A stretch of 33,945 nt of DNA, from assembly GCA_035948045.1 (NCBI GenBank), contig DASZJN010000259.1, positions 1 to 33,945 of the forward strand, read 5' to 3'. The notes under the pieces are model-generated. The model did not search any database and was not told the origin of the DNA. It saw nothing but the letters and a program-made list of their open reading frames with translations. Below, piece by piece: positions 1,849 to 25,553 of the stretch. Every line of letters begins with the position of its first letter. Positions within the stretch are counted from its first letter, which is position 1. The stretch comes from Acidimicrobiales bacterium. Lineage in GTDB: Bacteria > Actinomycetota > Acidimicrobiia > Acidimicrobiales > RAAP-2. Position numbers and translations under genes: made by a program.

Positions 1849-3120
1849 CTAGTTGTGGCGGACCTCGTCGAAGGGCTTGTCCCGATCGGCGGCGTACTCC
1901 CTTGGCATGCCCAGCACCCGCTCGCTGATGATGTTGCGCTGCATCTCGTTGCTGCCCCCGCCCAGGCTGCTGCCTTGGCGATTGAGGTAGACCTCCCCGA
2001 GGGGTGGGGCGTCGTCGTCGATCCAGGCACCGATGTCGGCTCCCGCGATCTCCAGGGCAATGTCCAGATGGCGCTCGGTGTTGGTGGCGGCAAAGAGCCG
2101 GGGCAGTGCTCCGGCGGGGCCAGGAAACGCCCCGGTGCGGATGCCCGTCGTCACCCGCTCGATCAGCTGGCTCTGGATCCGCTCGTTGATCCGGTCCTCC
2201 GCCACCAGCTGGCGGACCCGGGGATCGCCCGTCTGACCGGTGGCCCGAGCCAATTCGAGCAGTTCCGACCGCTGGCCGCCCTGGCCGGCTGCCGCGATGA
2301 TGGCTCCGCTGGCATAGGGGGACCCGCCCCCCACCGCGTTCCGTTCGTGGAACAGCAGGCGCGAGGCCACCGTCCAACCGTCGTTGATCTCGCCCACGAC
2401 GTCGGTGACCGGGACGGGCACGTCATCGAAGAACTCCTGGCAGAACTCGGCCGTGCGGTTGGACATCTTGATCTGCTGGACCTCGACCCCGGGCTGGTGG
2501 ATCTTGAGGATGAACATGGTCAGGCCCCGGTGTTTGGGCACGTGCCAATCGGTCCGGGCCAGGCAGAGCGCATAGTCGGATCGGAACGCGCCCGAACTCC
2601 AGATCTTCGATCCGTTGAGGACAAACACGTCCCCGTCCCTGGTCGCCCTGGTCACCAGGCCGGCGAGGTCCGAACCGCCACTGGGCTCGGACAGGAACTG
2701 GACCCACAGCTCGTCACCCCGGAGCATGGCCGGGATGTGGCGGAGCTTCTGCTCCTCGGTGCCGAAGTCGAGGAGGGTTGCGGCCAGGATGGTGAAGGTC
2801 GGAACGTTGAAGGTGGTGGGCATCCGGTAGGGCAGCGACTCTCGGGTGAAGGCCCGCTGGTGGGCTCGGGACAGGCCCTGGCCGCCATAGGCGACCGGAA
2901 AGCAGAGACCGGCGAACCCGCCGTCGAACAGGATGCGCTGCAGGCGGCGGGCACCCTTCCCCGACTCGTCCTCCCGGGACAATTGCTGATTGGTGTATCC
3001 CTCGGGCAGCAGCGGCATGGAGTCGGCCAGCCAGGCTCGCGCCCGTTGGCGGAATGACTCGACGTCCTCTTGGGAGTCCACCCTCTCCTCGGGTACATCC
3101 GTGCCAGTGTGCGCGCTCAT
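1849..3120 (-). CDS. acyl-CoA dehydrogenase, alpha-type (catalytic) subunit
   Basis: 423-aa ORF with FLSEPSGGSDLAGL, GWTVASRLLFHERN and the C-terminal GGGSNEMQRNIISERVLG. Its ATG (3118-3120) overlaps the upstream gene's stop by 4 nt (ATGA). Confidence 0.92.
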   Translation of the reverse strand: MSAHTGTDVPEERVDSQEDVESFRQRARAWLADSMPLLPEGYTNQQLSREDESGKGARRLQRILFDGGFAGLCFPVAYGGQGLSRAHQRAFTRESLPYRMPTTFNVPTFTILAATLLDFGTEEQKLRHIPAMLRGDELWVQFLSEPSGGSDLAGLVTRATRDGDVFVLNGSKIWSSGAFRSDYALCLARTDWHVPKHRGLTMFILKIHQPGVEVQQIKMSNRTAEFCQEFFDDVPVPVTDVVGEINDGWTVASRLLFHERNAVGGGSPYASGAIIAAAGQGGQRSELLELARATGQTGDPRVRQLVAEDRINERIQSQLIERVTTGIRTGAFPGPAGALPRLFAATNTERHLDIALEIAGADIGAWIDDDAPPLGEVYLNRQGSSLGGGSNEMQRNIISERVLGMPREYAADRDKPFDEVRHN

Positions 3121-4259
3121 GGAACTTCCCTCTCCATCCCCATGGCCATAGCCACACGCTCCCGGTGGTCACGGGGCGTCCCCCACTGGGTGCGGTCCAC
3201 CACCACCCGGCGGAGGTAGAGGTGGAGGTCGTGGTCCCAGGTCACCCCGATGCCGCCGTGAATCTGCACGCAGTCCTGCAGGATGACCGGGCCGCGGTCG
3301 CCGATATAGGCCTTGGCCACGCTGACCAGCTCGGCGGCATGGGTGGAGTCCGAGTCCACGGCCCGGGCCGCGGCGCCGGCGGTGGCATGGGCAGCCTCGA
3401 GCCACACCTTCATGTCCGCGAACCGGTGCTTCAGGGCCTGATACGAGGCCAGGGGCCGCCCGAAGGAGTACCGGTCGGCGGCGTACTCGACGGTGAACTC
3501 GAACACCCGGTCCATGGCCCCGACCATCTCCGCACACTGGAGCACGGCCACGGTCTGCAGCTGGTGCTCGATGTCGGCCACGGTGGTCTCCGCCAACCCG
3601 AGGGCGGCGTCCTGTCCCACCGCCACCTGATCGAAGCGGATCTGGGCGAAGCGTCTCACCAGGTCGAGGCTGTTCGCCGTATCCACCGTGACTCCGGGGC
3701 TGTCGGAAGGCACGATGAATTGAGCCACGCCGTCCTCTGTGGCTGCTGTCACCAGGTAGACGTCGGCCTGTCCCGCGGCCTCGACCGGACCAGACACGCC
3801 GTCGAGGACCACGCCGGTGTCACCGAGCTTCGCCCCTACCCTGCCTCCGGAGTCGATGCCGGCGGCGGGGGCGCCGAGGCACCATGCGGCCACCGAAGTG
3901 CCGTCCATCAGCCCGGGGAGCAGCCTCCGCCGTTGGTCGGCAGATCCCGACCGGGCCAGCGCCTCGGCCACGACATTGGTGGGCACCAGTGGCCCGGGCG
4001 AGACCAGGCTGCCCATCGACTCGGCCACCAGCACGAGGTCCAGCAGCCCGTGACCCGAGACGCTGCCCCCACCGTCGGCTTCGGAAACCAGCAGCGAGGT
4101 CCATCCCAGTTCGGCCCCGGTCTTCCACCAGCCCCGATCGAACCCTGCGGGCTCCTCATCGGCCAGGCGGCGGACCGTCTCCAGGGGAGCCGTGCTCTCG
4201 AGGAACTTCCGAGTCGTGTCCAGCAGCAGCTGCTGGTCGTCAGTGATACGAAGGTCCAC
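3117..4259 (-). CDS. acyl-CoA dehydrogenase family protein, beta-type (non-catalytic partner) subunit
   Basis: The ORF 3117..4556 is trimmed to GTG 4259 (VDLRITDDQQLLLDTTRKF..., the typical ACAD N-terminus), 7 nt after the P450 stop. It carries IHGGIGVTWDHDLHLYLRR but lacks the SEPxxGSDLA and HER motifs. Confidence 0.85.
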   Translation of the reverse strand: MDLRITDDQQLLLDTTRKFLESTAPLETVRRLADEEPAGFDRGWWKTGAELGWTSLLVSEADGGGSVSGHGLLDLVLVAESMGSLVSPGPLVPTNVVAEALARSGSADQRRRLLPGLMDGTSVAAWCLGAPAAGIDSGGRVGAKLGDTGVVLDGVSGPVEAAGQADVYLVTAATEDGVAQFIVPSDSPGVTVDTANSLDLVRRFAQIRFDQVAVGQDAALGLAETTVADIEHQLQTVAVLQCAEMVGAMDRVFEFTVEYAADRYSFGRPLASYQALKHRFADMKVWLEAAHATAGAAARAVDSDSTHAAELVSVAKAYIGDRGPVILQDCVQIHGGIGVTWDHDLHLYLRRVVVDRTQWGTPRDHRERVAMAMGMEREVP

Positions 4260-4266
4260 CCAGGCC

Positions 4267-5469
4267 CTACCCTTGTGAGCCTGACGCCGTGAAGACGAGC
4301 GGCAACGTATCGATCTGGCGCAGTCCCGCCTGATAGACCAGCTTGGTCCCGGGGGCGAGCGAGTAGTCCGGGATCCGCAGATGCCACTCCCGCAGCGCGA
4401 TGCGGAGCTCCATGCGGGCCAGATGCGAGCCGAGACACCGGTGGATGCCGCCGCCGAAGGCCAGGTGCTTGTTCGGGTTGCGTTCCAGGTCGACGGTGAA
4501 GGCATCGGGGAGGGCGTCCTCATCGATGTTGGCCGCACCGATGCTGACTCCCACACTGGAGCCCTTGGAGACCGGGCAGCCCTCGATCTCGACGTCGGCG
4601 ACGGCGGTGCGGGCCACCGCGGTGACCGGCGATTCCCAGCGCAGGAGCTCCTCCACCGTCGACGGGATGATCGAAGGGTCGTCCACGATGCGCCGACGCT
4701 GCTCGGGGTACTGGGCCAGGTAGGCGAAGAAGCACTCGAGGCTGTCGGTCACCGTGTCGAGGCCGGCCAGGATGAACAGGAAGCAAATCCCGACGATTTC
4801 GTCCACGGTGAGCCGCTGGCCGTCGATTTCGGCGGTGAGGAACAGGCTCAGGATGTCGTCCCGGGTATCGGCGCTCGCCTTTCGCTCCCTCACCACCTCG
4901 GCGAAGTACTCCTCGATCTGCCGGGCCGCCACCTTCTGGCTGGCCTGGATCTCGTCGAGGTCTGACCCCGAAGGGCGCAGGATCCCGTCCTTCATGCTCA
5001 AGAACAGGTCGAGCTGGGACAGAGGCAGGCCGACCAGCCGCAAGAACACGGCCGACGGGAGCGGCACAGCCAACTCGTCGGAGAATTCGCACCGTCCCGT
5101 GTCGATGAACCCATCGATGCGCTCGTTGACCAACCGGGCGATGTCGGGCTCCAGAAGGTTCATCTGTCGGGGGGCGAAGATCGGATCCAGGAGGCGGCGG
5201 TAGTTCCGGTGGTTCGGAGGGTCGACCTGAAGGGGGATCAGTGGCACCGATTGCCCGAGGTCGACGGCTTGCATGGCCGAGGAGAACTCCTCGGGGTGCT
5301 GGAGGACGTACTCCACAGCCGATCGGCGGACGACCTGGGGCCCGAACGTACCTGGGACCACCGATCCCTCAGCCTGGGCCCGGCGGTAGTAGGGCTGGGG
5401 ATTGGCGCTCACGTCCGAATCCATGAACCCCTCGGGTTCGAAGACCTCGGACTCTTGGGCCTGCGACAT
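4267..5469 (-). CDS. cytochrome P450
   Basis: Heme loop FGGGIHRCLGSHLA, I-helix LFILAGLDTVTDS and ExxR motif EELLRWESP. Start is ATG 5469 (MSQAQESE...), preceded by AAGGAGG. The longer ORF reaching 5607 has no supporting features. Confidence 0.93.
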   Translation of the reverse strand: MSQAQESEVFEPEGFMDSDVSANPQPYYRRAQAEGSVVPGTFGPQVVRRSAVEYVLQHPEEFSSAMQAVDLGQSVPLIPLQVDPPNHRNYRRLLDPIFAPRQMNLLEPDIARLVNERIDGFIDTGRCEFSDELAVPLPSAVFLRLVGLPLSQLDLFLSMKDGILRPSGSDLDEIQASQKVAARQIEEYFAEVVRERKASADTRDDILSLFLTAEIDGQRLTVDEIVGICFLFILAGLDTVTDSLECFFAYLAQYPEQRRRIVDDPSIIPSTVEELLRWESPVTAVARTAVADVEIEGCPVSKGSSVGVSIGAANIDEDALPDAFTVDLERNPNKHLAFGGGIHRCLGSHLARMELRIALREWHLRIPDYSLAPGTKLVYQAGLRQIDTLPLVFTASGSQG

Positions 5470-5535
5470 GGCTGCCTCCTTTGCAGTGTCCCGGTGCGGC
5501 GGACCCGGGGACGGCGAGGTGAGAATCGGCTTTTC

Positions 5536-5548
5536 AGTAGACTCTACT
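5536..5548. promoter_or_regulatory. operator-like palindrome in the AT-richer patch upstream of the P450 operon
   Basis: AGTAGA-c-TCTACT has perfect 6-bp arms, 67-79 nt upstream of the P450 ATG. On the minus strand it contains TAGAGT, a plausible -10 hexamer. Confidence 0.3.
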
Positions 5549-5643
5549 CGGACGGCCCCGCCCACCACATGTCCGACGTGCCGCCTGGCCCCATCGCCGG
5601 CAGGCATCCGCTAGTGGAATGGCCCGATGGATGGTCCCGGCGC

Positions 5644-6762: not shown

Positions 6763-6789
6763 GGCGGTCCATGACGCCGGGTCCGCACA

Positions 6790-8247: not shown

Positions 8248-8316
8248 CCTCCGCCGGGCCGTCCGGGCACCGCGGGGCGACCGAGTCTGGAGATCCGTGG
8301 GCCGTTGACCCCTGGG

Positions 8317-9561: not shown

Positions 9562-9670
9562 GAGCCCGCCCCTTCGAGCGGGCCGAACGATGCTGCCAGC
9601 CCGATGCACCCGTGCTCGTCCATGATCGACACGGTAGCCAACCTGAGGGAACCGAGCGCCCGGCCGTCGG

Positions 9671-14825: not shown

Positions 14826-14922
14826 GAGCGGGCAGTCTACGGGTGCCGCAACCCCGTCACCGGGCCCGCCGACCATCCTCGACCCCGGATCCCGAGCAAA
14901 CCGGTGTGTCAAGCTGACCGGC

Positions 14923-16104
14923 ATGGACCTGCGGATGACGCCGGCACAGCGGGACCTTCGCCACCAGCTCCAGGAGTGGCTGATGGCCAACCTGCCCTGG
15001 GAGTACGGCGTCGGCATGCCACCCCGTTCCCCCGATCTCGACGAAGAGGTGGCCTTCGGTCGCCGGTGGCAGGGCTTGTTGGCCGCCGACCATTGGGTGG
15101 GGATCACGTGGCCCGTCGAGCTCGGCGGGCGTGGTCTCGGACCGACCGAGCATTTCGTGGTCACCGAGGAGCTGGCCCGGGCCCGGGCCCCTGAACTGGT
15201 GGGCCGGATCGGCATCAACCTGGTCGGCCCCACCCTGTTCACCCACGGAACCGACGAGCAGCGCCAGCGCTGGCTCCCGCCCATCCTGGGCGCCGACGCC
15301 CTGTGGTGCCAGCTGTTCTCCGAGCCCGACGCCGGCAGCGACCTGGCGTCACTGACCACCCGGGCCGAGCGGGTGGAGGGCGGCTACCGGGTCACGGGGC
15401 GAAAGGTCTGGACCTCCTATGCCCAGTTCGCCGATTGGGGCCTGTGCCTGGCGCGCAGCCACCCCGACGCTCCGAAACGGCAGCTGGGCATGACCTGCCT
15501 GGTGGTGGACATGCACGCCGACGGGGTCGAGGTCCGGCCCCTGGTGCAGATCACCGGCGAGGCCGAGTTCAACGAGGTGTTCCTCGACGGCGTCCTCGTC
15601 CCGGACGACCACGTGGTCGGTACCCCCGGCGAGGGATGGACGGTGGCGAACTCGACCCTGTCCCACGAGCGCGGGGTCAATCCGCGGCAACTCGGGATCC
15701 ACTGCCAACTCCTGTTGGGGTTGCTCGAGATGGCTCAGGACAGTGAGCGCGGGTTCTGCGACGACGGGATGCGCCAACGGTTGGCCGAGGCCTACCTCGA
15801 GGTGAAGCTGTTCCAGCTGCACAACTGGCGGACCCTCACCCGACTTGAGCGCGGAGAGCCGCCCGGGCCCGAGGGAAGCACGCTCAAGCTGTACTGGAGC
15901 GAGATGTCCAAGCGTTTACACGAGACCGTGCTGGCCGTGCTCGGGCCGAGCGCGGGCCTGTGGCAGGGCGCGGCCGACAACCCAGGGGACGGCATGTGGC
16001 AGCGATCGTGGCTCTACTACCAGGCATCGTCGATCTTCTCGGGGACGAACGAGATCCAGCGGACCCTGGTGGGCGAGCGGGTGCTCGGCCTCCCGAGAGG
16101 CTGA
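14923..16104 (+). CDS. acyl-CoA dehydrogenase, alpha-type subunit
   Basis: ATG 14923 (MDLRMTPAQRDLRHQL...). Motifs are LFSEPDAGSDLASL, GWTVANSTLSHERG and FSGTNEIQRTLVGERVLG. It is divergent from the beta-type gene, 97 bp away. Confidence 0.92.
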   Translation: MDLRMTPAQRDLRHQLQEWLMANLPWEYGVGMPPRSPDLDEEVAFGRRWQGLLAADHWVGITWPVELGGRGLGPTEHFVVTEELARARAPELVGRIGINLVGPTLFTHGTDEQRQRWLPPILGADALWCQLFSEPDAGSDLASLTTRAERVEGGYRVTGRKVWTSYAQFADWGLCLARSHPDAPKRQLGMTCLVVDMHADGVEVRPLVQITGEAEFNEVFLDGVLVPDDHVVGTPGEGWTVANSTLSHERGVNPRQLGIHCQLLLGLLEMAQDSERGFCDDGMRQRLAEAYLEVKLFQLHNWRTLTRLERGEPPGPEGSTLKLYWSEMSKRLHETVLAVLGPSAGLWQGAADNPGDGMWQRSWLYYQASSIFSGTNEIQRTLVGERVLGLPRG

Positions 16105-16159: not shown

Positions 16160-16167
16160 CCTGGTGC

Positions 16168-18387
16168 TTACATCCCGGGTTCGGGATCGCGGGGAAGACC
16201 GAGCAGGCGCTCGGCGATCACGTTGCGTTGGATCTCACTGGTCCCACCGGCGATGGTGAGGCATCTGGTGACCAGAAAGCCGTGGGCCCACCGCTTGGCG
16301 TAGCCGTCGAGGGCGGCGCCTTCGGGGCCGAACATGGCCAATCCCATCTCCTGTACCCGTTGCTCGTGCTCGGCCCCCAGCAACTTCCGCACGCTCGTTC
16401 CCGGCCCGGGGTCGGTGCCGGCGAGAGTCCGCAGCATGGAACGGTGGGCGACGAGGCCGAGTGACTGCGCCTCGACCAGGAGCGAGGCGAGCTTGAGCAT
16501 GGTGCCCGCCGACACCGGCTGGGTCTGTCGTTGGGTCAGATGGAGCAGGGACTCGACGCCGATGCCGAAGGTCGATCCCGACGACATCGACACCCGTTCG
16601 TTGGCCAGGGTGGCGCGGGCCATCTTCCAACCCTCGCCCTCCCCTCCGATGACGCAGTCGTCGGGCACGAACAGGTCATCGATGAAGACCTCGTTGAACA
16701 TGGCGTCCCCGGTGATCTCCCGCAGGGGCCGGATGTCCAGCCCCCGGGAGCGCATGTCGACGATGAAGTAGGTGATGCCCTCGTGCTTGGGAACGGTGGG
16801 GTCGGTCCGGGCCAGGCAGATCCCCCAGTCCGATTCGAGGGCCATCGACGTCCAGACCTTCTGGCCGTTGAGCAGCCATCCGCCGTCGGTCCGCTCTGCC
16901 CTGGTGGTCAGGCTGGCCAGATCGGATCCGGCGCCGGGTTCCGAGAAGAGCTGGCACCACTTCAACTCGCCGAGCAGTGTCGGGCGGACCCACCGCAGGC
17001 GCTGCTCCTCGGATCCGTGGGCGATGATCACCGGCAGGGCCCAGGCCCCGACCCCGAGGTGGGGTCGCAGGACGCCGGCCTCGGCCAAGTCTGCGTCGAT
17101 CACCAGCTGCTCGACGGCGGAGGAGTCCCGTCCCCACGGGGTCGGCCAGTGGGGAACCACCAACCCGGCATCCACCAGAGCCCGCCTCCGGTCCTGGCCC
17201 TCCGACTCCCGCAGCGTCCCGAGCACCGGCGCCAGCTCCGAGCGGACCCGGTCCGCCTCCTCGGGAAGATCGGTGGTCAGGGCCCGACGCACGCCCCGGA
17301 GGGCCAACCCCACCACCTCGGTCAGATAGCCCTCGGGCCCACCGAGCAACTGGCGGGCGGCCAACGCCCGGCGCAGATGGAGATGGGCATCGTGGTCCCA
17401 GGTGAAGCCGATGCCGCCCAGGAGTTGCACACAGTCCTTGGCGCTGTCGACGCACCCGTCGAACACCAGGGCGCCGGCGGTGCCGACGGCCAGCGCCGTC
17501 TCGTCGGACGGGCCCGACGCCGCGGCCAGGGCTGCGTCCCAAGCCACGGCGGTGATCTGCTCCGTCCGGACCAGCATGTCGGCCAGCCGGTGCTTCACCG
17601 CCTGGAACTGCCCGATCGGACGTCCGAACTGCTCGCGCACCTTGGCGTACTCGGCGGCTGTCTCGAGGCACCACCGCGCCCCCCCGGTGAGCTCGGCCGC
17701 ACCTAGGGCGACCACGAGTTCGTGCACCCGCTCACCGGTGACGGAACGGAGCTGGCGTTGGGCGGCGACGGTCACGGACTCGGCCACGATCGTGCCCACC
17801 CGCCGGGTCGGATCGAGGCTCTCGAGCGGGCCCGCCTGCGCCGCTCCCCCACCCGTGCCCACGTCGAGGAGGCACCAGACCGCCGGTTCGTCACCGTCCC
17901 GCGCCGGCACCAGCACCAGCGAGGCCGTCGAGGCACCCAACACCGGTCGGAGGGCACCGGAGACCACCAGGCTGCCGTCGTCCCCGCGGCTGACGATGTC
18001 GAGATGGGAGGATCCGGAGTAGACGGCCCCGGCGACACTCCCGTCAACCAGCCCCGGCAACAGGTCGGCGGCCTGGTCGTCCGTGCCGGCCTCGGCCAGG
18101 GCGGCGGACAGGGTGACGGTGGGGAGGAGGGGCCCGGGAAACAGGAAACGGCCCGACTGCTCGAGCACGACCGCCAGCTCGAAGAGACCGTAGCCCTGGC
18201 CACCCCACCGCTCCGGGATGTGGAGCCCGAGCCAACCCTGGGCGGCGAACTCCTTCCACACCGGTTGCAGCACCTCGTCCTCGGCATCGAGCAGGGCCCG
18301 CGGGACGTCGGGCGGACAATGGGCGTCGAGCCAGCGACGCGAGGTGGCCCGGAGGGCCTCGTGCTCCTCGGAGATGGCCAGTGACAT
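16168..18387 (-). CDS. fused two-domain acyl-CoA dehydrogenase (beta-type N-terminal half + alpha-type C-terminal half)
   Basis: 739-aa ORF starting at ATG 18387. The N-terminal half has LLGGIGFTWDHDAHLHLRR and no SEP/HER motifs. The C-terminal half has LFSEPGAGSDLASL, GWKMARATLANERV and AGGTSEIQRNVIAERLLG. Confidence 0.92.
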   Translation of the reverse strand: MSLAISEEHEALRATSRRWLDAHCPPDVPRALLDAEDEVLQPVWKEFAAQGWLGLHIPERWGGQGYGLFELAVVLEQSGRFLFPGPLLPTVTLSAALAEAGTDDQAADLLPGLVDGSVAGAVYSGSSHLDIVSRGDDGSLVVSGALRPVLGASTASLVLVPARDGDEPAVWCLLDVGTGGGAAQAGPLESLDPTRRVGTIVAESVTVAAQRQLRSVTGERVHELVVALGAAELTGGARWCLETAAEYAKVREQFGRPIGQFQAVKHRLADMLVRTEQITAVAWDAALAAASGPSDETALAVGTAGALVFDGCVDSAKDCVQLLGGIGFTWDHDAHLHLRRALAARQLLGGPEGYLTEVVGLALRGVRRALTTDLPEEADRVRSELAPVLGTLRESEGQDRRRALVDAGLVVPHWPTPWGRDSSAVEQLVIDADLAEAGVLRPHLGVGAWALPVIIAHGSEEQRLRWVRPTLLGELKWCQLFSEPGAGSDLASLTTRAERTDGGWLLNGQKVWTSMALESDWGICLARTDPTVPKHEGITYFIVDMRSRGLDIRPLREITGDAMFNEVFIDDLFVPDDCVIGGEGEGWKMARATLANERVSMSSGSTFGIGVESLLHLTQRQTQPVSAGTMLKLASLLVEAQSLGLVAHRSMLRTLAGTDPGPGTSVRKLLGAEHEQRVQEMGLAMFGPEGAALDGYAKRWAHGFLVTRCLTIAGGTSEIQRNVIAERLLGLPRDPEPGM

Positions 18388-18518: not shown

Positions 18519-20051
18519 CTAGGGCGACGGGGCGGCTCCACCCTCGGGACGGTGGGCCTGGCGCAGCAGCCGCTTCAGGACCTTTCCGTTCTGGTCGCGG
18601 GGGAGCTCGTCGACCACCTCCCACACGCGGGGGACCTTGTACCCGGCCAGCCTGTGGCGGACGTGGGCCTCCAGCTCGCCGACCTCGACGCTCCGGCGCA
18701 GCTGCACCATGGCCTTCAGACGCTCGCCGTCGCGCTCGTCGGGGATGCCGAAGACGGCACAGTCGACCACCTCGGGGTGTTCGTAGAGGGCCTCCTCGAT
18801 CTCGCGAGGGGCGATGTTGACGCCGCCCCACAGCACCATGTCCGAGACGCGGTCGGTGATGGTGAGGTAGCCGTCCTCGTCGAGGTGCCCGATATCCCCG
18901 ACGGTGAAGGCGTCGTCCCGCCAGGCGCCGGCGGTGGCGGCATCGTCGTTGCGATAGGAGAACCGGACGCCCCCCGCAGGCCGGATGTACACCAGTCCGG
19001 TCTCCCCGGTGGCCTTGGCCGAACCGTCCTCGCCCAGGATGCGGATCTCGACGCCGGGCCACGGTCGGCCGACGCTGCCGGGATGGGTCCGCCACTCCTC
19101 CGGGGAGATCTTGGTGGCCCCGCCTTCGCTGGCTCCGTACAGCTCATGGATCTCCGTATCGGGAAAGGCCTCCATCATCCGGGTTTTCACCACGATGGGG
19201 CAGGGCGCGGCGGCGTGCACGATCAGCTTGAAGCTGGAGAGGTCGATGGCAACCCGCTCCTCCTCGGGGATCTCGAGGATCCTGATGAAGTGGGCCGGCA
19301 CCATGAACGACCGGGTGCCGCGGGTCCGGCTCACCTCGGCCAGCCACGACCTCGCCTCGAAGTGATCGGTGATGACGGTGGCGGCGCCGATGTAGAGGGC
19401 GCACAGGGCCCAGCCGCAGTGGGCGGCGTGGTACGACGGGCCGCTCATGACATAGACGTCGTCGGGGGTCCAACCCCACAGGGCAACCTGGCCCTCGGTC
19501 CCCCGGCGGCGGCCGGCGGCGTTGGCCAGGGCGCCGTGCACCACCCCTTTGGGTCGGGCCGTGGTGCCGGAGGTGTAGAAGATCAGCCCGGGCCCGGAGC
19601 CGCTGTCGGCGTCGGGCAGCGGTGGGGCAGCGGCGACGGCACGTTCGTAGTCCCCCCCCACCAGGAGGAGGGGGAGGTCGCGCTCTGCCATGGCCCCGTT
19701 CAGGGCGTCCTCGAACTCGGTGTGACCCACGACCACGGCCACGTCGGCATCGGTGAAGATGTAGGCCAGCTCCCCGGCCTTCAGGTGCCAGTTCACCGGC
19801 AGGTACGGGGCGTCGAGCATGGCGGCCGCGGTGGCCACCTCGAACTGTTCCGCCCCATTGGGGAGCACAGTGGCCACCGGGTGCCCGGGCCCGGCGCCCT
19901 TGTCGGCCAGGACGGAGGCCAGCCGGCTGGCCCGGTCGTCGAGCTCACCGTAGGTATGGATGACGTCGCCCACGATGATCGCCGGTCGGTCAGGCCCGTT
20001 GCGGGCATGGGTGGTGACCCCGCGCGGCTCGGCAGAGGTCGGGTCGTCCAT
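18519..20051 (-). CDS. AMP-dependent acyl-CoA synthetase/ligase
   Basis: The ORF is trimmed to ATG 20051 (MDDPTSAEPRG...). Motifs are the AMP-binding IFYTSGTTARPKGV, YGASEGG, GDIGHLDEDGYLTITDR and the C-terminal PRDQNGKVLKR. Confidence 0.92.
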   Translation of the reverse strand: MDDPTSAEPRGVTTHARNGPDRPAIIVGDVIHTYGELDDRASRLASVLADKGAGPGHPVATVLPNGAEQFEVATAAAMLDAPYLPVNWHLKAGELAYIFTDADVAVVVGHTEFEDALNGAMAERDLPLLLVGGDYERAVAAAPPLPDADSGSGPGLIFYTSGTTARPKGVVHGALANAAGRRRGTEGQVALWGWTPDDVYVMSGPSYHAAHCGWALCALYIGAATVITDHFEARSWLAEVSRTRGTRSFMVPAHFIRILEIPEEERVAIDLSSFKLIVHAAAPCPIVVKTRMMEAFPDTEIHELYGASEGGATKISPEEWRTHPGSVGRPWPGVEIRILGEDGSAKATGETGLVYIRPAGGVRFSYRNDDAATAGAWRDDAFTVGDIGHLDEDGYLTITDRVSDMVLWGGVNIAPREIEEALYEHPEVVDCAVFGIPDERDGERLKAMVQLRRSVEVGELEAHVRHRLAGYKVPRVWEVVDELPRDQNGKVLKRLLRQAHRPEGGAAPSP

Positions 20052-20055
20052 GGTC

Positions 20056-20073
20056 GGCGACGCTAGCGCCGCC
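20056..20073. promoter_or_regulatory. 18-bp near-perfect palindrome in the ligase/amine-oxidase divergent region
   Basis: GGCGACGCTAGCGCCGCC has 16 of 18 positions self-complementary, centred on CTAG. It lies 5 nt from the ligase start in the 88-bp divergent intergenic region. Confidence 0.3.
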
Positions 20074-20139
20074 AAGCTCAGGTGCGCACGGAGCGTGGCA
20101 CCACGGATCGGGGCCCACCAGTCCGGTACGGTTGCGGCC

Positions 20140-22053: not shown

Positions 22054-22069
22054 GCCGGAGCCCACCCGG

Positions 22070-22088: not shown

Positions 22089-23183
22089 TCAGTCCGCGTC
22101 CACCAACATCGCCGCCAACCGCTTGCGGTGGGTGGCGTGGCCACCGAGCAACACGTCGTTCTGCTTGGCCCGCTTGAAGAGGAAATGGGCGTCGGACGCC
22201 CAGGTGAAGCCCACTCCCCCGTGGAGCTGGATGTCCTCCCCAGTCACCTTCACCGCCGCCTCGGTGGTGTAGCCGGCGGCCATGGCCGCCGACCGCTGGC
22301 GACGGGGATCCTCGGCGTCGGACGCCCAGGCCGCGAACTGCACGGCCACCCTGGCCATCTCGATCTGGTGGAACATGTCGACGATCTTGTGCTTGACCAC
22401 CTGGAACGACGCCACCGGCCGATCGAAGACCACCCGCTCCCTGGTGTAGCCGATGGCCAACTCCAACGCTCGGTCTGCCGTCCCCAGTGTCTCCGATGAC
22501 AGTGCCACTGCCGTGTCGTCCATGACGCGGCGCCAGATCGAGGTCTGGCTCCCTCCCGGCCCGATGGGCATACACGGACGATCGTGCAGCTCGAGGCGCG
22601 CCACCTTGCGGAGCGGGTCGAGCGCCGGGACCGGCTCGCCGTCGGGATGCTCGACCAGGAAGGCGCGCCGACCCTGCTCGGAGCCGGCGACGACGATGAC
22701 CCAGTCCGCGGTGTGGCCGTCCAGCACCAGTGGCTTCAGCCCGTCCAGGACCCATCCGGCGCCCTTCCGGCGGGCGCGGGTGCGCACCGTCTCCAGCGGG
22801 TCGCCGTGGCCGGACTCGTGCAGGGCCACCGTGCCCCGAGTCCGTCCGGCGGCGAGGTCGGCCAGCAGATCGTCGGCTCCGAGGGCGCGGGCGGCCAGGG
22901 TGGCGAACACCGCTGAGGAGAAGAAGGGGCCCGGCAACGGCACCCGCCCTGTCTCGTAGAGGACGATGCACAGCTCGGCCAGGCCGGCCCCGGCCCCACC
23001 AGCCTCCTCGGGTACGACCAGACCGGTCCAGCCCAGATCGACCAGCTTCGCCCACAGGCCGGCGTCCACGCCGTCGGGATCATCGGCCATCTGGCGCAAC
23101 AGCGCGCCCCCGATCTCGCGGTCCATGGCCTGCCTGGCCACGTCGCGGAGCACCTCCTGTTCGGTGTCGTACGTGAAGTCCAT
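22089..23183 (-). CDS. acyl-CoA dehydrogenase family protein, beta-type subunit
   Basis: 364-aa ORF beginning MDFTYDTEQEVLRD... It has LHGGVGFTWASDAHFLFKR but lacks the SEPxxGSDLA and HER motifs. Confidence 0.88.
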   Translation of the reverse strand: MDFTYDTEQEVLRDVARQAMDREIGGALLRQMADDPDGVDAGLWAKLVDLGWTGLVVPEEAGGAGAGLAELCIVLYETGRVPLPGPFFSSAVFATLAARALGADDLLADLAAGRTRGTVALHESGHGDPLETVRTRARRKGAGWVLDGLKPLVLDGHTADWVIVVAGSEQGRRAFLVEHPDGEPVPALDPLRKVARLELHDRPCMPIGPGGSQTSIWRRVMDDTAVALSSETLGTADRALELAIGYTRERVVFDRPVASFQVVKHKIVDMFHQIEMARVAVQFAAWASDAEDPRRQRSAAMAAGYTTEAAVKVTGEDIQLHGGVGFTWASDAHFLFKRAKQNDVLLGGHATHRKRLAAMLVDAD

Positions 23184-23369
23184 GCGCTCCGTGGCCTCGC
23201 CTTTCCCCCATGGTCAGTGATCGCAATGGGCACCGCGGAGGCGACGCCACCCTGACAGGGACGTCAGTGTAGACCCGACCCCGGACAAGCACGGGAGCGT
23301 CACCGCCAGGTCGTCGCCGGGCCGGACGTCCCGTCCCGAGGCCGCCCCTCGTACACTGGCCGAACCGCC

Positions 23370-24314
23370 ATGGTCTATCTGTTCGCACTCTCAGGCGCAC
23401 TCTCCAACGCACTGGTGAGCGTCCTCCAGCGCATGGGCGTGGAGGACGCCAAGGAGGACGACACCCTCAGACTGAGCCTGTTGGCCCATGCCGTGCGGCG
23501 CGGGGTGTGGTTGGCCGGCTTCGCCTTCATGATCGCAGCCTTTCTCTTCCAGGCGCTGGCTCTCCACGTGGGCGACCTCACCGAGGTTCAGCCCATCATG
23601 GTCACCGAGCTCCTGTTCCTGGTGTTCATCCTCTCGACCTGGTTCGGCTACCGGTCCGGGCCACGCGAGTGGTTGGGCGTATTGCTGGCTTCGGCGGGCC
23701 TGTCCGGGTTCCTGGCCTTCTCGGCGCCGACCGGAGGGGACGGGGTGCCGGGAACCCTGGGATGGGTGATCGTCGGGGCGTCGTGCACGGTGGGCATGGC
23801 CGTGACCGTGATGCTCGCCCTCCGAGGCCCGCGGTGGTGGCGCGCCGCCATGTTCGGAGCGGCGTCGGCCATCGGCTACGCCTTCACCGCGTCCCTGACC
23901 AAGGTGGTGTCCCACTTCGTGGCCATGGACTGGACGAGCATCTTCTCGCACTGGGAGACCTACGCCCTGTGCATCTTCGGGGCCGTTTCGGTCTTCCTGA
24001 CCCAGAATGCATTCCACGCCGGGCCGATCGGTGCCTCCCAGGCCGCCCTGGTGCTGGTCGACCCACTGGTGAGCATCGTCATCGGCATCACGCTGTTCGG
24101 TGACAACCTCCAGACCAATGGCGCCCGCGGGCCCCTCGAAGCCGTGTCGCTCCTCTTCCTGATCGTGGGCGGCTTCGTGCTCTCGAACTCCGCGGCGGTG
24201 TCCATGTTGAAGGGCGACGAGGGGCCAGCCGGTGATCTCCTGACTCCGCGACTGCACGCTCATCGCGTGCCTGCGGCGCACCCTGACGCAGTGCCGCCGG
24301 GGCTCACCCCCTGA
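23370..24314 (+). CDS. polytopic membrane protein, DMT (drug/metabolite transporter)-like
   Basis: 314-aa ORF with about 9-10 hydrophobic segments, for example WLAGFAFMIAAFLFQALAL, VTELLFLVFILSTWF and LLFLIVGGFVLSN, plus a hydrophilic C-terminal tail. The family assignment is by general resemblance only. Confidence 0.7.
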   Translation: MVYLFALSGALSNALVSVLQRMGVEDAKEDDTLRLSLLAHAVRRGVWLAGFAFMIAAFLFQALALHVGDLTEVQPIMVTELLFLVFILSTWFGYRSGPREWLGVLLASAGLSGFLAFSAPTGGDGVPGTLGWVIVGASCTVGMAVTVMLALRGPRWWRAAMFGAASAIGYAFTASLTKVVSHFVAMDWTSIFSHWETYALCIFGAVSVFLTQNAFHAGPIGASQAALVLVDPLVSIVIGITLFGDNLQTNGARGPLEAVSLLFLIVGGFVLSNSAAVSMLKGDEGPAGDLLTPRLHAHRVPAAHPDAVPPGLTP

Positions 24315-24344
24315 GCGGCGGAGGCGTTCGCTACACTCACGTCC

Positions 24345-25553
24345 GTGGATTTCTCCCTGACCGCCGAGGACGAGGCCTTCGGCGTCGAGCTCCGGGGTTG
24401 GCTCGACGAGAACCTCGAGAAGTTCCTGACCGAGACGGAGGACGAGGACCAGCGAAACGCCGGCGTCCCGTCCCAGTCGCGCCGCAAGGCGTGGCAAGGG
24501 GTCATGAACGACGGGGGCTGGGCCGCTGTCCACTGGCCTACGGAGTGGGGCGGCCGCGAGACGACGCCCGTCCAACGCCTGCTGTATTCGGAGATCATGG
24601 CCGAGTACCGGACGCCGGGGATGTTCAACGCCAACGGCATCTGGCAGATCGGCCCCATGCTCATCCAGTGGGGAACCGAGGAGCAGAAGAACCGCTGGCT
24701 CCCCTCCATCATCAACGCCGACGATCACTGGTGCCAGGGGTTCTCGGAGCCCGATGCCGGAAACGACCTGGCCAACCTCCGCACCATGGCCATCCTCGAC
24801 GGCGACCACTACGTGGTCAACGGGCAGAAGATCTGGATCTCGACCGCACACCTGGCCAAGTGGGGCCTCTTCCTGTTCCGTACCGATCCGACGGCCATCG
24901 AGCGCGGGGCCAAGCACGAAGGCATCACCGCCTTCATCGTCGACCTCGAGTCACCGGGAGTCGAACGCCGACCCATTCGGGACATGTCGGGCGACGAGAT
25001 GTTCAACGAGGTCTACTTCCGCGACGTCCACGTACCGGTCGGCGACCGCCTGGGAGGCGAGGGCGAGGGCTGGATGGTGGCCATGGGCACCCTCGGCCAC
25101 GAGCGGGTCGGCATCGCGGGCCAGATCACCGCCCTGGCTGCCGACCTCCGGGCCATGATCGAGGCGGCCCGGGCGGTCAATCCCGATGCGCTGGCCGATC
25201 CGGGTATCGCCGATCGGCTGGCTCGGGCCTGGACGGAGATCGAGCTGACCCGGCTGTTGGTGTACCGGGCGCTCAGCAAGGTCATGCGGGGCGAGAAGAA
25301 CTGGCCCGAGGTCCCCTTCTCCAAGCTCCAGTACTCGATGCTGGCCCAGACCCTGGCCGAGCTGGCCGTGGACCTGCTCGGACCGGTCGGACTCCTGGCC
25401 CGGGGCGGCCCCGAGGCCGTCGACCGGGGGAAGTGGACCCGGCTGTACTCGTTCCAGCGGTACACGACCATCGGTGGCGGGTCCACCGAAGTCCAGAAGA
25501 ACATCATCGCCGACCGGGCTGTGAAGCTGCCCGGTCAGACCCGGCTGTCCTGA
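24345..25553 (+). CDS. acyl-CoA dehydrogenase, alpha-type subunit
   Basis: GTG 24345 (MDFSLTAEDEAFG...). Motifs are GFSEPDAGNDLANL, GWMVAMGTLGHERV and GGGSTEVQKNIIADRAV. Confidence 0.92.
   Translation: MDFSLTAEDEAFGVELRGWLDENLEKFLTETEDEDQRNAGVPSQSRRKAWQGVMNDGGWAAVHWPTEWGGRETTPVQRLLYSEIMAEYRTPGMFNANGIWQIGPMLIQWGTEEQKNRWLPSIINADDHWCQGFSEPDAGNDLANLRTMAILDGDHYVVNGQKIWISTAHLAKWGLFLFRTDPTAIERGAKHEGITAFIVDLESPGVERRPIRDMSGDEMFNEVYFRDVHVPVGDRLGGEGEGWMVAMGTLGHERVGIAGQITALAADLRAMIEAARAVNPDALADPGIADRLARAWTEIELTRLLVYRALSKVMRGEKNWPEVPFSKLQYSMLAQTLAELAVDLLGPVGLLARGGPEAVDRGKWTRLYSFQRYTTIGGGSTEVQKNIIADRAVKLPGQTRLS

What the first reader, a model, noticed from the sequence alone, without database searches (positions are those of the whole stretch)
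1849..25553. Four alpha/beta acyl-CoA dehydrogenase sets in four different genetic architectures within 24 kb
The ACAD reading frames split cleanly into two classes. Alpha-type frames carry (F/L)SEPxxG(S/N)DLA plus L(x)HER/NER and GxxE(I/M/V)Q(R/K)N: 1849-3120, 14923-16104, the C-terminal half of 16168-18387, and 24345-25553. Beta-type frames lack those motifs but share GG(I/V)G(F/V)TWxxDxH(L/F)xx(K/R)R: 3117-4259, 13695-14825, the N-terminal half of 16168-18387, and 22089-23183.

Each alpha has exactly one nearby beta, in four arrangements:
- an ATGA-overlapping operon
- a divergent pair 97 bp apart
- a single fused polypeptide
- a pair split by a DMT transporter gene

Heteromeric alpha2beta2 ACADs with one active site per dimer are known from ChsE1-ChsE2 (FadE28-29) and ChsE4-ChsE5 (FadE26-27) of the M. 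tuberculosis cholesterol pathway. They are regarded as a hallmark of bulky steroid-type acyl-CoA substrates. In all four alpha frames the position equivalent to MCAD Glu376 (YEGT) reads G or S, so the HER/NER Glu (IVD/LCAD-type position) is the likely base. Four such sets together suggest successive dehydrogenations on one complex substrate.
Basis: partly seen in the sequence, partly recalled or inferred. Interest (0 to 1): 0.7.

Follow-up and report, generated by a model that had tools for sequence, protein, structure and literature searches.

The report
Four two-part acyl-CoA dehydrogenase sets
A soil Acidimicrobiales bacterium carries four two-part (alpha plus beta) acyl-CoA dehydrogenases in one lipid-breakdown gene cluster.

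Summary
The window holds seven ACAD genes with eight ACAD domains, and no others. They split into four alpha-type and four beta-type domains.

- Alpha domains keep the flavin-ring motifs and a Glu that aligns with the HER Glu of M. tuberculosis ChsE4 (residue 247 by counting). I recall Glu247 as the published catalytic base but could not check the source.
- Alpha domains lack the motifs that hold the FAD of the partner subunit. Beta domains show the exact opposite pattern. Each pair can therefore build only one FAD/active site.
- The proposed pairs are conserved neighbours elsewhere. B1->A1 is co-directional in 46 of 47 metagenome loci. A4/B4 is divergent in 40 of 42 genomes and A2/B2 in 37 of 52.
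- The fused protein has more than 100 full-length homologues.
- The DMT gene is a recent insertion into an otherwise ~82-bp divergent A4/B4 spacer. There are really three architectures, not four.

All three have precedents: operon (ChsE4-5), fusion (CasC) and non-adjacent genes (IpdE1/IpdE2). The enzymes are only about 30% identical to characterised steroid ACADs, and no ring-degradation genes were found nearby. The substrate is therefore probably a bulky or branched lipid side chain, not demonstrably a steroid. These are new members of a known kind, of modest interest.

The parts
1849..3120 (-). A1, alpha-type ACAD subunit (423 aa): LSEPSGGSDLA, KIWSS, LFHER, GGGSNEMQRN
   Evidence: Pfam ACAD N/M/C domains. 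Motifs. Alignment with ChsE4 and Tcur3483. The ER Glu is present in all 12 most frequent sequence variants of its orthologues and [HNQ]ER matches 74 of 75 orthologues.
3117..4259 (-). B1, beta-type ACAD subunit (380 aa). Its stop overlaps the A1 start (ATGA). It has RYSFGRPLASYQ and QIHGGIGVTW, and no Glu at either catalytic-base position.
   Evidence: (best NCBIfam model pimD_small). It lies co-directionally and immediately upstream of A1 orthologues in 46 of 47 metagenome loci.
4267..5607 (-). Cytochrome P450, directly upstream of B1-A1 on the same strand. The likely true start is near 5472.
   Evidence: Pfam p450. Best solved relatives are the CYP101 family, a reconstructed CYP125 ancestor and CYP143. 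P450-B1-A1 order is kept in closer relatives at 61-93% identity. Start estimate.
11909..12391 (+). Stand-alone DUF35 / ChsH2-type zinc-ribbon plus OB-fold protein, 4-bp overlap with the thiolase-fold gene
   Evidence: Pfam zf-ChsH2 and OB_ChsH2_C. Gene calls on an identical contig.
12388..13602 (+). Thiolase-fold protein most similar to the steroid side-chain aldolase Ltp2. Motif reads YDGF (Ltp2 has YDHF), and Ltp2 Tyr344 is replaced by Arg.
   Evidence: PDB best hit 6ok1_A at 2.5e-53, with alignment. Catalytic motifs of Ltp2, Sal and thiolases from PMC12329534.
13695..14825 (-). B2, beta-type ACAD subunit (376 aa, GTG start)
   Evidence: (best NCBIfam model IpdE2, 174.7 bits, below the cutoff of 450). 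Divergent from A2 in 37 of 52 genome loci.
14826..14922 (.). 97-bp divergent spacer between B2 and A2. It holds the conserved boxes AGCTTGACACA and CCGTAGACT.
   Evidence: Sequence. Alignment of 33 orthologous spacers. The exact CCGTAGACT occurs once in the window, here.
14923..16104 (+). A2, alpha-type ACAD subunit (393 aa): FSEPDAGSDLA, KVWTS, LSHER, FSGTNEIQRT
   Evidence: (best model pimC_large). HER is present in 49 of 49 orthologues.
17314..18387 (-). F3 N-terminal half (residues 1-358), beta-type domain: REQFGRPIGQFQ, QLLGGIGFTW
   Evidence: The best structural match of the AlphaFold model is the beta chain of the Tcur3481-Tcur3483 steroid ACAD (target-normalised TM-score 0.89).
16168..17187 (-). 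F3 C-terminal half (residues 401-739), alpha-type domain: FSEPGAGSDLA, KVWTS, LANER, GGTSEIQRN
   Evidence: The model's low-confidence loops are exactly the flavin/substrate loops 483-492, 595-605 and 713-715. NER is present in 79 of 79 orthologues.
18519..20051 (-). Acyl-CoA synthetase downstream of F3 on the same strand
   Evidence: Pfam AMP-binding. NCBIfam hits are all below cutoff. 510-aa gene call on an identical contig.
22089..23183 (-). B4, beta-type ACAD subunit (364 aa)
   Evidence: Best PDB hit is 6wy8_A, the beta chain Tcur3481. Divergent from A4 orthologues in 40 of 42 genome loci.
23253..23266 (.). Operator-like palindrome TGACAGGGACGTCA in the B4/DMT spacer
   Evidence: The window has 4 matches to TGAC-N6-GTCA against 0.62 expected. 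The same palindrome is conserved in the A4/B4 spacer of 28 relatives. Nearly all of 204 hits in 80 loci are intergenic, next to cluster genes.
23370..24314 (+). DMT/EamA-type transporter inserted between the divergent promoter region and A4
   Evidence: NCBIfam DMT_1. It is present between A4 and B4 only in the window's close relatives. In about 29 more distant genomes A4 and B4 are about 82-174 bp apart.
24345..25553 (+). A4, alpha-type ACAD subunit (402 aa): FSEPDAGNDLA, KIWIS, LGHER, GGGSTEVQKN
   Evidence: Best PDB hit is 4x28_A (ChsE4) at 3.3e-53, and its HER aligns with ChsE4 H246-E247-R248. Orthologues read (H/F/Y)ER with the Glu invariant.

Best explanation
The window comes from an uncultured soil Acidimicrobiales bacterium. 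It encodes four heteromeric acyl-CoA dehydrogenases of the alpha2beta2 (ChsE/IpdE/PimCD) type.

How each set works. The alpha polypeptide or half carries the substrate pocket, the flavin-ring contacts and the catalytic Glu on helix G, the IVD/LCAD/ChsE4-type position. The beta polypeptide or half has lost these. It keeps the C-terminal-domain motifs that clamp the ADP-ribose part of the FAD bound to its partner. Each alpha-beta unit should therefore have one FAD and one active site.

Three genetic solutions deliver the two halves together:
- a translationally coupled beta->alpha operon (B1-A1);
- divergent transcription from a short shared promoter region (B2/A2 and B4/A4, the latter with a DMT transporter gene inserted later);
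- a beta-alpha gene fusion (F3).

Pathway context. The sets sit among acyl-CoA synthetases, crotonases, thiolase-fold proteins (one Ltp2-like with a DUF35 partner), a P450 and a Baeyer-Villiger monooxygenase. The most likely role is successive beta-oxidation-type dehydrogenations of CoA-activated bulky or methyl-branched lipid side chains, analogous to actinobacterial sterol side-chain degradation.

Shown versus inferred. Shown here: domain classes, motif complementarity, conserved pairing and structural similarity. Inferred: heterotetramer formation, FAD stoichiometry and substrate.
For: Motif complementarity:
- Alpha domains keep SEPxxG(S/N)D, KxW(S/T)S, (H/N)ER and GG(S/T)xE(I/V)Q. They lack RxxFGxP(I/L)xx(F/Y)Q and QxHGGxG. 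Beta domains show the reverse. Canonical homotetrameric ACADs (1ukw, 3pfd) have both sets.
- The alpha Glu aligns with the HER Glu of ChsE4 (residue 247), and the beta domains have V, A, L or T there.
- These patterns hold in 35-79 orthologues per protein.

Closest solved relatives:
- A4 best matches ChsE4 (alpha). B4 and the N-terminal half of F3 best match Tcur3481 (beta).
- NCBIfam best models are pimC_large for every alpha, and pimD_small or IpdE2 for every beta.

Conserved pairing:
- B1->A1 in 46 of 47 loci, A4/B4 in 40 of 42, and A2/B2 in 37 of 52, always in the same orientation.
- The fused protein has at least 120 full-length database clusters.
- Its model has mean pLDDT 82.7 and pTM 0.82 over both halves.
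- Alpha is more conserved than beta in every set, including the two halves of F3. This fits a catalytic subunit plus a scaffold subunit.

Context:
- Pfam, NCBIfam and PDB hits for the neighbouring genes.
- A census of 120 ORFs from relatives found ACAD 23, AMP-binding 12, P450 8, thiolase-like 7, TetR 6, CoA-transferase III 5 and ECH 5.
- The palindrome TGAC-N6-GTCA lies in the A4/B4 and A2/B2 spacers and upstream of the P450 and of a further alpha ACAD in relatives.
Against: - No biochemical data exist. Heteromer formation and FAD stoichiometry are inferred from sequence only.
- The alpha and beta domains are only 27-33% identical to the solved steroid ACAD subunits. That is no closer than they are to each other.
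- Every NCBIfam hit is far below its curated cutoff, so no orthology to a characterised enzyme is established.
- No MaoC-type hydratase was found in the window. No steroid ring-degradation gene was found in the window or among the 25 commonest families within +/-10 kb in eight relatives.
- Unrelated-looking genes are interspersed: a copper amine oxidase, an FGGY kinase, and a GMC oxidoreductase with a small subunit.
- In the window itself the palindrome is found only at the B4/DMT spacer, at the amidohydrolase start and upstream of the BVMO. It is absent from the A2/B2 spacer and from upstream of the A1/B1 operon.
Confidence: 0.8

Rival explanations
1. The cluster is a true sterol or bile-acid side-chain pathway. 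A4/B4, F3 and A2/B2 would be the functional equivalents of ChsE4-ChsE5 (C8 side chain), ChsE3/CasC (C5) and ChsE1-ChsE2 (C3, working with the Ltp2-like aldolase). A1/B1 plus the P450 would serve a further step.
For: - A4's best solved relative is ChsE4.
- Some F3 homologues at 64-77% identity are named 3-oxochol-4-en-24-oyl-CoA dehydrogenase by JGI.
- F3 has the CasC-type order, with the beta half N-terminal and the catalytic half C-terminal.
- The thiolase-fold gene next to B2/A2 best matches the steroid aldolase Ltp2 and has a DUF35 partner.
- Both crotonases score best against EchA19.
- A reconstructed CYP125 ancestor is among the top P450 matches.
- TetR and family III CoA-transferase (racemase-family) genes occur in relatives.
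Against: - Identities to ChsE4 and Tcur3483 are only 27-32%, while those two share 52% with each other.
- The EchA19, IpdE2 and CasG models are all missed by wide margins.
- The P450 is equally close to the terpenoid-hydroxylating CYP101 family.
- The Ltp2 catalytic Tyr344 is Arg, and the YDHF motif reads YDGF.
- No MaoC hydratase, Rieske oxygenase, KstD-type, extradiol dioxygenase or IpdAB-type gene was seen in the window, or among the 25 commonest of 65 families found around eight relatives. The rarer families were not listed.
Confidence: 0.3
2. The four sets are independent catabolic modules for different non-steroid acyl-CoAs, such as terpenoid or alicyclic acids, methyl-branched acids or dicarboxylates handled by PimCD-type enzymes. 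They have merely accumulated in one catabolic island and do not act successively on one substrate.
For: - A1/B1 orthologues occur in many unrelated neighbourhoods, and no A1 or B1 orthologue appeared in the labelled gene strings within +/-10 kb of F3 in the 80 genome loci.
- PimCD-like two-subunit ACADs act on dicarboxylyl-CoAs, and pimC/pimD are among the best NCBIfam models.
- The BVMO scores 657 bits against PtlE, a terpenoid lactone-forming enzyme, and the P450 resembles the CYP101 camphor-type enzymes.
- A copper amine oxidase, an FGGY kinase and a GMC oxidoreductase are interspersed.
Against: - F3, A2/B2 and A4/B4 remain within about 20 kb of each other across genomes whose F3 is only 55-60% identical.
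- In those genomes one palindromic motif sits in both divergent spacers and upstream of the P450(-thiolase-F3) genes. This points to a single regulon for at least three sets.
Confidence: 0.35
3. The beta-type frames are not partners of the alpha frames. They would be decaying paralogues or stand-alone proteins with another function, and the alpha frames would work as ordinary homotetramers.
For: No direct interaction data exist. One alpha-type ACAD without an adjacent beta occurs downstream of F3 in distant relatives.
Against: - Beta genes are intact, have coding-type GC3, and are conserved with their FAD-clamp motifs in 35-48 orthologues.
- Their position and orientation relative to alpha are conserved.
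- Alpha frames lack the trans FAD motifs that every homomeric ACAD has.
- The natural fusion F3 joins one domain of each type.
Confidence: 0.04

Closest known systems
ChsE4-ChsE5 (FadE26-FadE27) of M. tuberculosis, PDB 4x28
   Same: Two ACAD-fold subunits. Alpha carries SEPxxGxD, HER (the Glu is residue 247 by counting) and GGGTNEVQR. According to PMC10925408, the alpha subunit binds the flavin ring and holds the catalytic Glu and substrate site, while the beta subunit contacts the ADP-ribose of FAD. ChsE4 is A4's best solved relative.
   Different: Only 28-32% identity to the window's alpha domains. fadE26-fadE27 are adjacent genes (own knowledge), whereas A4/B4 are divergently transcribed. 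The ChsE4 substrate is a C8 sterol side chain; the substrate here is unknown.
Tcur3481-Tcur3483 steroid ACAD of Thermomonospora curvata, PDB 6wy8/6wy9
   Same: Best solved relative of B4 and of the beta half of F3, by sequence and by fold (target-normalised TM-score 0.89). Same alpha/beta motif split.
   Different: 29-33% identity to the window's beta domains and 27-31% to the alpha domains. It prefers C3 steroid side chains, which was not tested here.
CasC of Rhodococcus jostii RHA1, and ChsE3/FadE34 of M. tuberculosis (the FadE34 fusion is from my own knowledge)
   Same: One polypeptide with two ACAD domains. The N-terminal domain serves FAD binding and only the C-terminal domain has the catalytic Glu. 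This is the same order as F3.
   Different: The F3 lineage is a large Acidimicrobiales family.
IpdE1 (FadE30) - IpdE2 (FadE33)
   Same: A heteromeric ACAD whose two subunits are encoded by non-adjacent genes. This is a precedent for the split A4/DMT/B4 arrangement. The IpdE2 model is the best NCBIfam hit of B2 and B4.
   Different: Scores of 175-180 bits fall far below the cutoff of 450, so B2 and B4 are not IpdE2 equivalents. IpdE1-IpdE2 acts on the 5-OH-HIP-CoA ring-fragment side chain.
PimC-PimD pimeloyl-CoA dehydrogenase and related dicarboxylyl-CoA dehydrogenases
   Same: Large/small subunit ACAD pair in one operon. Best NCBIfam models for all alpha frames and for B1. Shows that the architecture is not restricted to steroids.
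   Different: Scores of 156-222 bits fall far below the cutoffs of about 624-653. The gene context here (P450, Ltp2-like protein, BVMO) is not a dicarboxylate pathway.

Membership tests
alpha2beta2 heteromeric ACAD family (ChsE/IpdE/PimCD type) | Two different ACAD-fold polypeptides or domains encoded together | tested here: met
   Pfam ACAD N/M/C domains in all seven frames, with two copies in F3. Conserved neighbourhood.
alpha2beta2 heteromeric ACAD family (ChsE/IpdE/PimCD type) | Only one subunit (alpha) has the catalytic Glu, at the helix-G position (the HER Glu of ChsE4, residue 247), together with the flavin-ring motifs | tested here: met
   Alignment with 4x28_A and 6wy8_B. Beta domains have no Glu at this position or at the MCAD Glu376 position.
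alpha2beta2 heteromeric ACAD family (ChsE/IpdE/PimCD type) | Beta keeps the motifs that contact the ADP-ribose part of the partner's FAD (RxxFGxP..., QxHGGxG), and alpha has lost them | tested here: met
   The pattern holds in orthologues: 0 of 49-75 alpha orthologues have FGxP, against 34-44 of 35-48 beta orthologues. Subunit roles.
alpha2beta2 heteromeric ACAD family (ChsE/IpdE/PimCD type) | Forms an alpha2beta2 tetramer with two FAD, and activity requires both subunits | not testable with these tools
   Needs co-expression, sizing and flavin quantification. Only the fused F3 could be modelled (pTM 0.82).
Fused ACAD (CasC / ChsE3-FadE34 type) | A single polypeptide of about 700-750 aa with an N-terminal non-catalytic ACAD domain and a C-terminal catalytic ACAD domain | tested here: met
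   F3 is 739 aa, with beta motifs at residue 324 and alpha motifs at 481, 594 and 715. CasC description.
Fused ACAD (CasC / ChsE3-FadE34 type) | Orthology to CasC/FadE34 and activity on C5-side-chain steroid CoA esters | not tested
   No reference sequence was obtainable. The only hint is JGI's name '3-oxochol-4-en-24-oyl-CoA dehydrogenase' on some homologues at 64-77% identity.
Actinobacterial sterol side-chain catabolic cluster (Cho/igr type) | MaoC-type ChsH1-ChsH2 hydratase partnering the Ltp2 aldolase | tested here: not met
   No MaoC domain appeared in any Pfam scan of window genes. DUF35 is a stand-alone 160-aa protein.
Actinobacterial sterol side-chain catabolic cluster (Cho/igr type) | Equivalog-level similarity to EchA19, IpdE2, CasG or FadD3, and Ltp2 catalytic residues | tested here: not met
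   EchA19 scores 255 and 106 bits against a cutoff of 400. IpdE2 scores at most 180 against 450. CasG scores 219 against 750. The Ltp2 YDHF motif reads YDGF and Tyr344 is Arg.
Actinobacterial sterol side-chain catabolic cluster (Cho/igr type) | Linked steroid-ring degradation genes (KshA, KstD, HsaC, IpdAB) | tested here: inconclusive
   None were found in the window, or among the 25 commonest of 65 families in +/-10 kb around eight relatives. The other 40 families were not listed. Whole genomes could not be searched.
PimCD pimeloyl-CoA dehydrogenase | Score above the curated cutoffs of TIGR03204 and TIGR03203 | tested here: not met
   Alpha frames score 156-222 bits against 623.85. B1 scores 171.7 against 652.7.

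The most novel reading that the evidence does not exclude
Abundant, uncultured soil Acidimicrobiaceae may carry a conserved regulon marked by the operator-like palindrome TGAC-N6-GTCA. It holds three to four heteromeric ACADs, a P450, Ltp2-like and TLP1-like thiolase-fold proteins and several CoA ligases. This regulon could degrade sterol-, hopanoid- or isoprenoid-type side chains in a bacterial class with no known steroid or terpenoid degraders. Obligate enzyme partners would routinely be expressed from opposite strands of one 70-80-bp bidirectional control region.
Probability: 0.25. Interest if true: 0.55.

Novelty: new member of a known kind. Interest (0 to 1): 0.3.

Why it matters
The result shows that alpha/beta ACAD sets can be recognised and paired from raw sequence by the complementary loss of the two classical ACAD signatures. 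It extends this enzyme type, including the fused and the divergently encoded forms, to a large group of uncultured soil Acidimicrobiales.

If the substrate turns out to be a sterol, a hopanoid or another bulky lipid, it would point to a so far unrecognised group of degraders of recalcitrant soil lipids. As it stands, it adds members and a gene-order variant to a family described since 2013. It does not add a new mechanism.

Tried and rejected
- Primary papers. I tried to read the primary papers on the family (PMC3807453, PMC7081610, PMC4489319, PMC4372739). None is held. Statements about CasC, IpdE1/E2 and ChsE4 come from reviews and later papers and from the PDB alignment.
- Phylogeny. Placement against FadE26-34, CasC and PimCD was not possible, because those sequences could not be fetched. 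Only the PDB chains 4x28_A, 6wy8_A/B, 1ukw and 3pfd were recovered from alignments.
- Bulky-substrate proline. I checked the helix-E proline of ChsE4 (Pro91) as a marker. Only the alpha half of F3 has Pro in the aligned column, and the region aligns poorly in A1, A2 and A4. The result is inconclusive.
- Repeats in the spacers. An inverted-repeat search in the window's two divergent spacers gave only weak 11-nt palindromes. The informative motif emerged only from aligning the spacers of relatives.
- Literature. A search for steroid degradation in Acidimicrobiia gave nothing useful.
- ECH frameshift. I considered whether the ECH gene at 5644-6690 is frameshifted. No continuation exists in another frame, and orthologues have the same form, so I rejected that idea.
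- TetR regulator. A search for a TetR regulator in the window found none.

Full report
**What is in the window.** The window is about 70% G+C. Real genes were picked by third-position GC and annotated with Pfam and NCBIfam. Gene order is:
- 275-973 (+): RibD_C-like protein
- 1155-1508 (+): Arr rifampin ADP-ribosyltransferase
- 1849-3120 (-): A1
- 3117-4259 (-): B1
- 4267-5607 (-): P450
- 5644-6690 (-): an unusual crotonase
- 6790-8247 (+): FGGY kinase
- 8317-9609 (-): Zn-dependent alcohol dehydrogenase
- 9671 to about 11326 (-): GMC oxidoreductase
- 11323-11883 (-): its small subunit
- 11909-12391 (+): DUF35 protein
- 12388-13602 (+): thiolase-fold protein
- 13695-14825 (-): B2
- 14923-16104 (+): A2
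- 16168-18387 (-): fused F3
- 18519-20051 (-): acyl-CoA synthetase
- 19960-22053 (+): copper amine oxidase
- 22089-23183 (-): B4
- 23370-24314 (+): DMT transporter
- 24345-25553 (+): A4
- 25566-27146 (+): TLP1-like thiolase-fold protein
- 27220-28596 (+): amidohydrolase_2
- 28599-29408 (+): crotonase
- 29810-31681 (+): Baeyer-Villiger-type monooxygenase
- from about 31690 (+): an SDR

Contigs that encode an identical F3, and loci 96-97% identical, come from soil metagenomes and Acidimicrobiales MAGs.

**Check of the observation.** There are two small caveats. A2 ends its C-terminal motif in T rather than N. B2 starts with GTG, and a gene caller placed its start 51 bp further upstream. No further ACAD-like sequence exists in the window. 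Pairwise identities separate the classes cleanly: 30-39% among alpha domains, 29-36% among beta domains, and 15-22% between classes.

**What the two classes are.** I aligned the eight domains with two ordinary homotetrameric ACADs (1ukw, 3pfd) and with the solved heteromeric subunits ChsE4, Tcur3483 (alpha) and Tcur3481 (beta).
- Ordinary ACADs carry two groups of flavin motifs. The cis group is SEPxxGSD, KxWIS/TN and YEGTxEIQR. The trans group is RxxFGxPIxxFQ and QxHGGxGY.
- From the MCAD structure literature (my own knowledge), the cis group contacts the flavin of the same subunit. The trans group contacts the ADP-ribose part of the FAD bound to the neighbouring subunit.
- The alpha frames keep only the cis group and the beta frames keep only the trans group.
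- A paper on LCAD states the same division of labour for ChsE4-ChsE5. Alpha binds the isoalloxazine and holds the catalytic Glu and substrate site, and beta contacts the ADP-ribose.
- An alpha-beta unit can therefore assemble one FAD site, and the reciprocal site is degenerate on both sides.

**Catalytic base.**
- In the phmmer alignment of A4 with 4x28_A, the HER of A4 aligns with H246-E247-R248 of ChsE4 (residue counting checked). I recall Glu247 as the published catalytic base of ChsE4, but the primary paper was not held.
- All four alpha domains have this Glu, and the four beta domains have V, A, L and T there.
- At the MCAD Glu376 position the alpha domains have G or S and the beta domains have W or L.
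- The helix-G position of the base in IVD and LCAD, against the J-K loop position in MCAD, is described.
- Among orthologues the Glu-Arg pair is present in every sequence variant listed for A2 (49 sequences), A4 (41) and F3 (79), and in the 12 commonest variants listed for A1. The preceding residue varies (H, N, F or Y).

**Solved relatives and the fused protein.**
- A4's best PDB hit is ChsE4 (3.3e-53), followed by Tcur3483.
- B4's best hit is Tcur3481 (1.8e-35).
- In F3, the N-terminal half matches Tcur3481 and ChsE5, and the C-terminal half matches ChsE4 and Tcur3483.
- An AlphaFold2 model of F3 built on 44 homologues has mean pLDDT 82.7 and pTM 0.82 over all 739 residues. The few segments below pLDDT 50 include the SEPGAGSDLA loop (483-492), the NER loop (595-605) and the GGT loop (713-715). 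These are the loops that need cofactor and substrate to order.
- Foldseek ranks the beta chains of 6wy8 first, and ChsE5 (4x28_C) matches equally well (target-normalised TM-score 0.89 for both).
- F3's order, non-catalytic domain first and catalytic domain second, is that described for CasC of R. jostii.

**Are the proposed pairs real?** Eighty genome loci around F3 homologues (all but one titled Acidimicrobiales or Acidimicrobiaceae MAGs) and eighty metagenome loci around A1 homologues were compared with all window proteins by tblastn.
- B1 lies co-directionally and immediately upstream of A1 in 46 of the 47 loci that have enough upstream sequence.
- A4 orthologues have a divergently oriented B4 orthologue in 40 of 42 loci. 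In about 29 of these the two genes are only 82-174 bp apart. The 1.15-2.0 kb gap that holds the DMT gene occurs only in the window's close relatives.
- A2/B2 are divergent, usually about 71 bp apart, in 37 of 52 loci. Seven of the remaining loci end at the locus edge.
- The DMT-split pair is therefore a derived state of a plain divergent pair.
- In every set the alpha partner is more conserved than the beta partner. Median identities are 61 vs 57, 74 vs 56 and 70 vs 64%. The two halves of F3 behave the same way, at 74 vs 63%.

**Control regions.** Aligning the divergent spacers of relatives revealed conserved boxes.
- The A4/B4 spacer holds CGTGTACT(C/G)TGACGCC(A/G)GTGTCAGG.
- The A2/B2 spacer holds AGC(A/T)TGGCACA, TGACACCCGTGTCA and CCGTAGACT. 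The last box lies 8 nt before the B2 start, which would fit a -10 box of a leaderless mRNA (inference).
- Both spacers share the palindrome TGAC-N6-GTCA.
- In the 80 genome loci this palindrome occurs 204 times in 1.67 Mb, almost always intergenic. It lies between A4 and B4, between A2 and B2, upstream of the P450 (in L045, in the spacer next to a TetR gene), and upstream of an extra alpha-type ACAD that follows F3.
- In the window it occurs four times against 0.62 expected: in the B4/DMT spacer (23253), at the start of the amidohydrolase gene (27221), 37 nt upstream of the BVMO (29773), and once inside the unrelated RibD_C gene.
- The window's own A2/B2 spacer keeps the two outer boxes but not the palindrome, and the window has no TetR gene.

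Co-regulation of several ACAD sets is therefore well supported in relatives. In this window it is supported only for A4/B4 and the genes downstream.

**Which pathway?** Several neighbours have a sterol side-chain enzyme as their best characterised relative.
- The thiolase-fold protein with a DUF35 partner best matches the aldolase Ltp2 (6ok1_A, 2.5e-53).
- Both crotonases score best against EchA19.
- The P450's top hits include a reconstructed CYP125 ancestor.
- The second thiolase-fold protein matches M. smegmatis TLP1.
- Relatives add TetR regulators and family III CoA-transferases. From my own knowledge, the latter family includes alpha-methylacyl-CoA racemase.

None of these reaches a curated cutoff.
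- The Ltp2 catalytic Tyr344 is Arg, and the YDHF motif reads YDGF.
- The P450 is equally close to terpenoid-hydroxylating CYP101 enzymes.
- The BVMO resembles PtlE.
- No MaoC hydratase or ring-degradation gene was found.
- Two-subunit ACADs also serve dicarboxylate catabolism.

I therefore commit to 'beta-oxidation-type degradation of bulky or methyl-branched lipid side chains, analogous to sterol side-chain degradation'. A true steroid substrate remains a minority possibility of about 0.3. A1/B1 with its P450 occurs in many different neighbourhoods elsewhere, so it is best seen as a separate module.

**Comparison with what is known, and verdict.**
- The alpha2beta2 family was described for ChsE1-2 and ChsE4-5.
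- The fusion is known from CasC.
- Non-adjacent subunit genes are known from IpdE1(FadE30)/IpdE2(FadE33) and the R. jostii HIP-CoA ACAD.
- Several sets per cluster are the rule in steroid catabolic regions (table).

The finding is a correct and careful sequence-only deduction. Biologically it adds new members in a little-studied lineage. The one mildly unusual and conserved feature is that obligate partners are transcribed divergently from a 70-80-bp control region. Interest is 0.3, and the novelty class is 'new member of a known kind'.

Noticed in passing
window 23253-23266, 27221-27234, 29773-29786 (also 684-697); L045 2958, 7247, 12688: The palindrome TGAC-N6-GTCA is over-represented in the window (4 against 0.62 expected). 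In 80 related loci, nearly all of 204 copies lie in promoter-proximal intergenic regions of cluster genes. These include both divergent ACAD spacers and, in the one locus annotated (L045), a TetR/P450 spacer. It is probably the operator of a TetR-family regulator, which is absent from this window.
   Followed up: partly
window 12388-13602 with 11909-12391: A thiolase-fold protein with a stand-alone DUF35 partner is closest to the steroid aldolase Ltp2. It has YDGF in place of the catalytic YDHF motif, and Arg in place of the Ltp2 general acid Tyr344. It fits neither the Ltp2, Sal nor SCP2-thiolase catalytic patterns described in PMC12329534.
   Followed up: partly
window 23370-24314: The DMT/EamA transporter gene is a lineage-specific insertion between the ancestral bidirectional promoter region and A4. 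More distant relatives have A4 and B4 only about 82 bp apart.
   Followed up: yes
L045 12705-13970 (and the same position in about 38 other loci): Distant relatives carry an extra alpha-type ACAD directly after the fused gene, with no beta gene adjacent to it. It has SEPNAGSD and HER, and lacks the FGxP and QxxGGxG motifs. It is preceded by the same palindrome. Its partner is unknown.
   Followed up: partly
window 5644-6690: This crotonase-family protein has a roughly 165-aa N-terminal extension with no Pfam match. Its crotonase core stops at profile position 174 of 251. No frameshift was found, and the form is conserved in relatives at 45-94% identity.
   Followed up: partly
window 19960-22053: A full-length copper amine oxidase (Pfam 519 bits) sits between the acyl-CoA synthetase and B4, and the two reading frames overlap at their 5' ends. 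It is conserved at this position in close relatives and lies next to F3 in some others. It hints at an amine-to-aldehyde entry step.
   Followed up: no
window 27220-31681: An amidohydrolase_2 protein (no NCBIfam match), an EchA19-like crotonase and a BVMO scoring 657 bits against PtlE lie downstream of A4. Two of them are preceded by the palindrome. This could be a ketone-to-lactone-to-acid ring-opening module.
   Followed up: no
window 6790-11883: An FGGY kinase, a Zn-dependent dehydrogenase (best but weak NCBIfam hit scyllo-inosose 3-dehydrogenase), and a GMC oxidoreductase with a gluconate-2-dehydrogenase-subunit-3-like small subunit form a sugar- or polyol-type module inside the lipid cluster. 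The module is conserved in close relatives.
   Followed up: no
window 1155-1508: An Arr-type rifampin ADP-ribosyltransferase gene (Pfam Arr-ms, 159.5 bits) lies just outside the cluster.
   Followed up: no
L045 15701-17236 and 17341-18819: In a distant relative's version of the cluster, two adjacent genes of about 500 aa have coding-type GC3 but no Pfam match.
   Followed up: no
window 13695-14876: The public metagenome gene call for B2 is 393 aa, starting 51 bp upstream of the start favoured by homology (376 aa). This changes the divergent spacer from 97 to 46 bp.
   Followed up: yes
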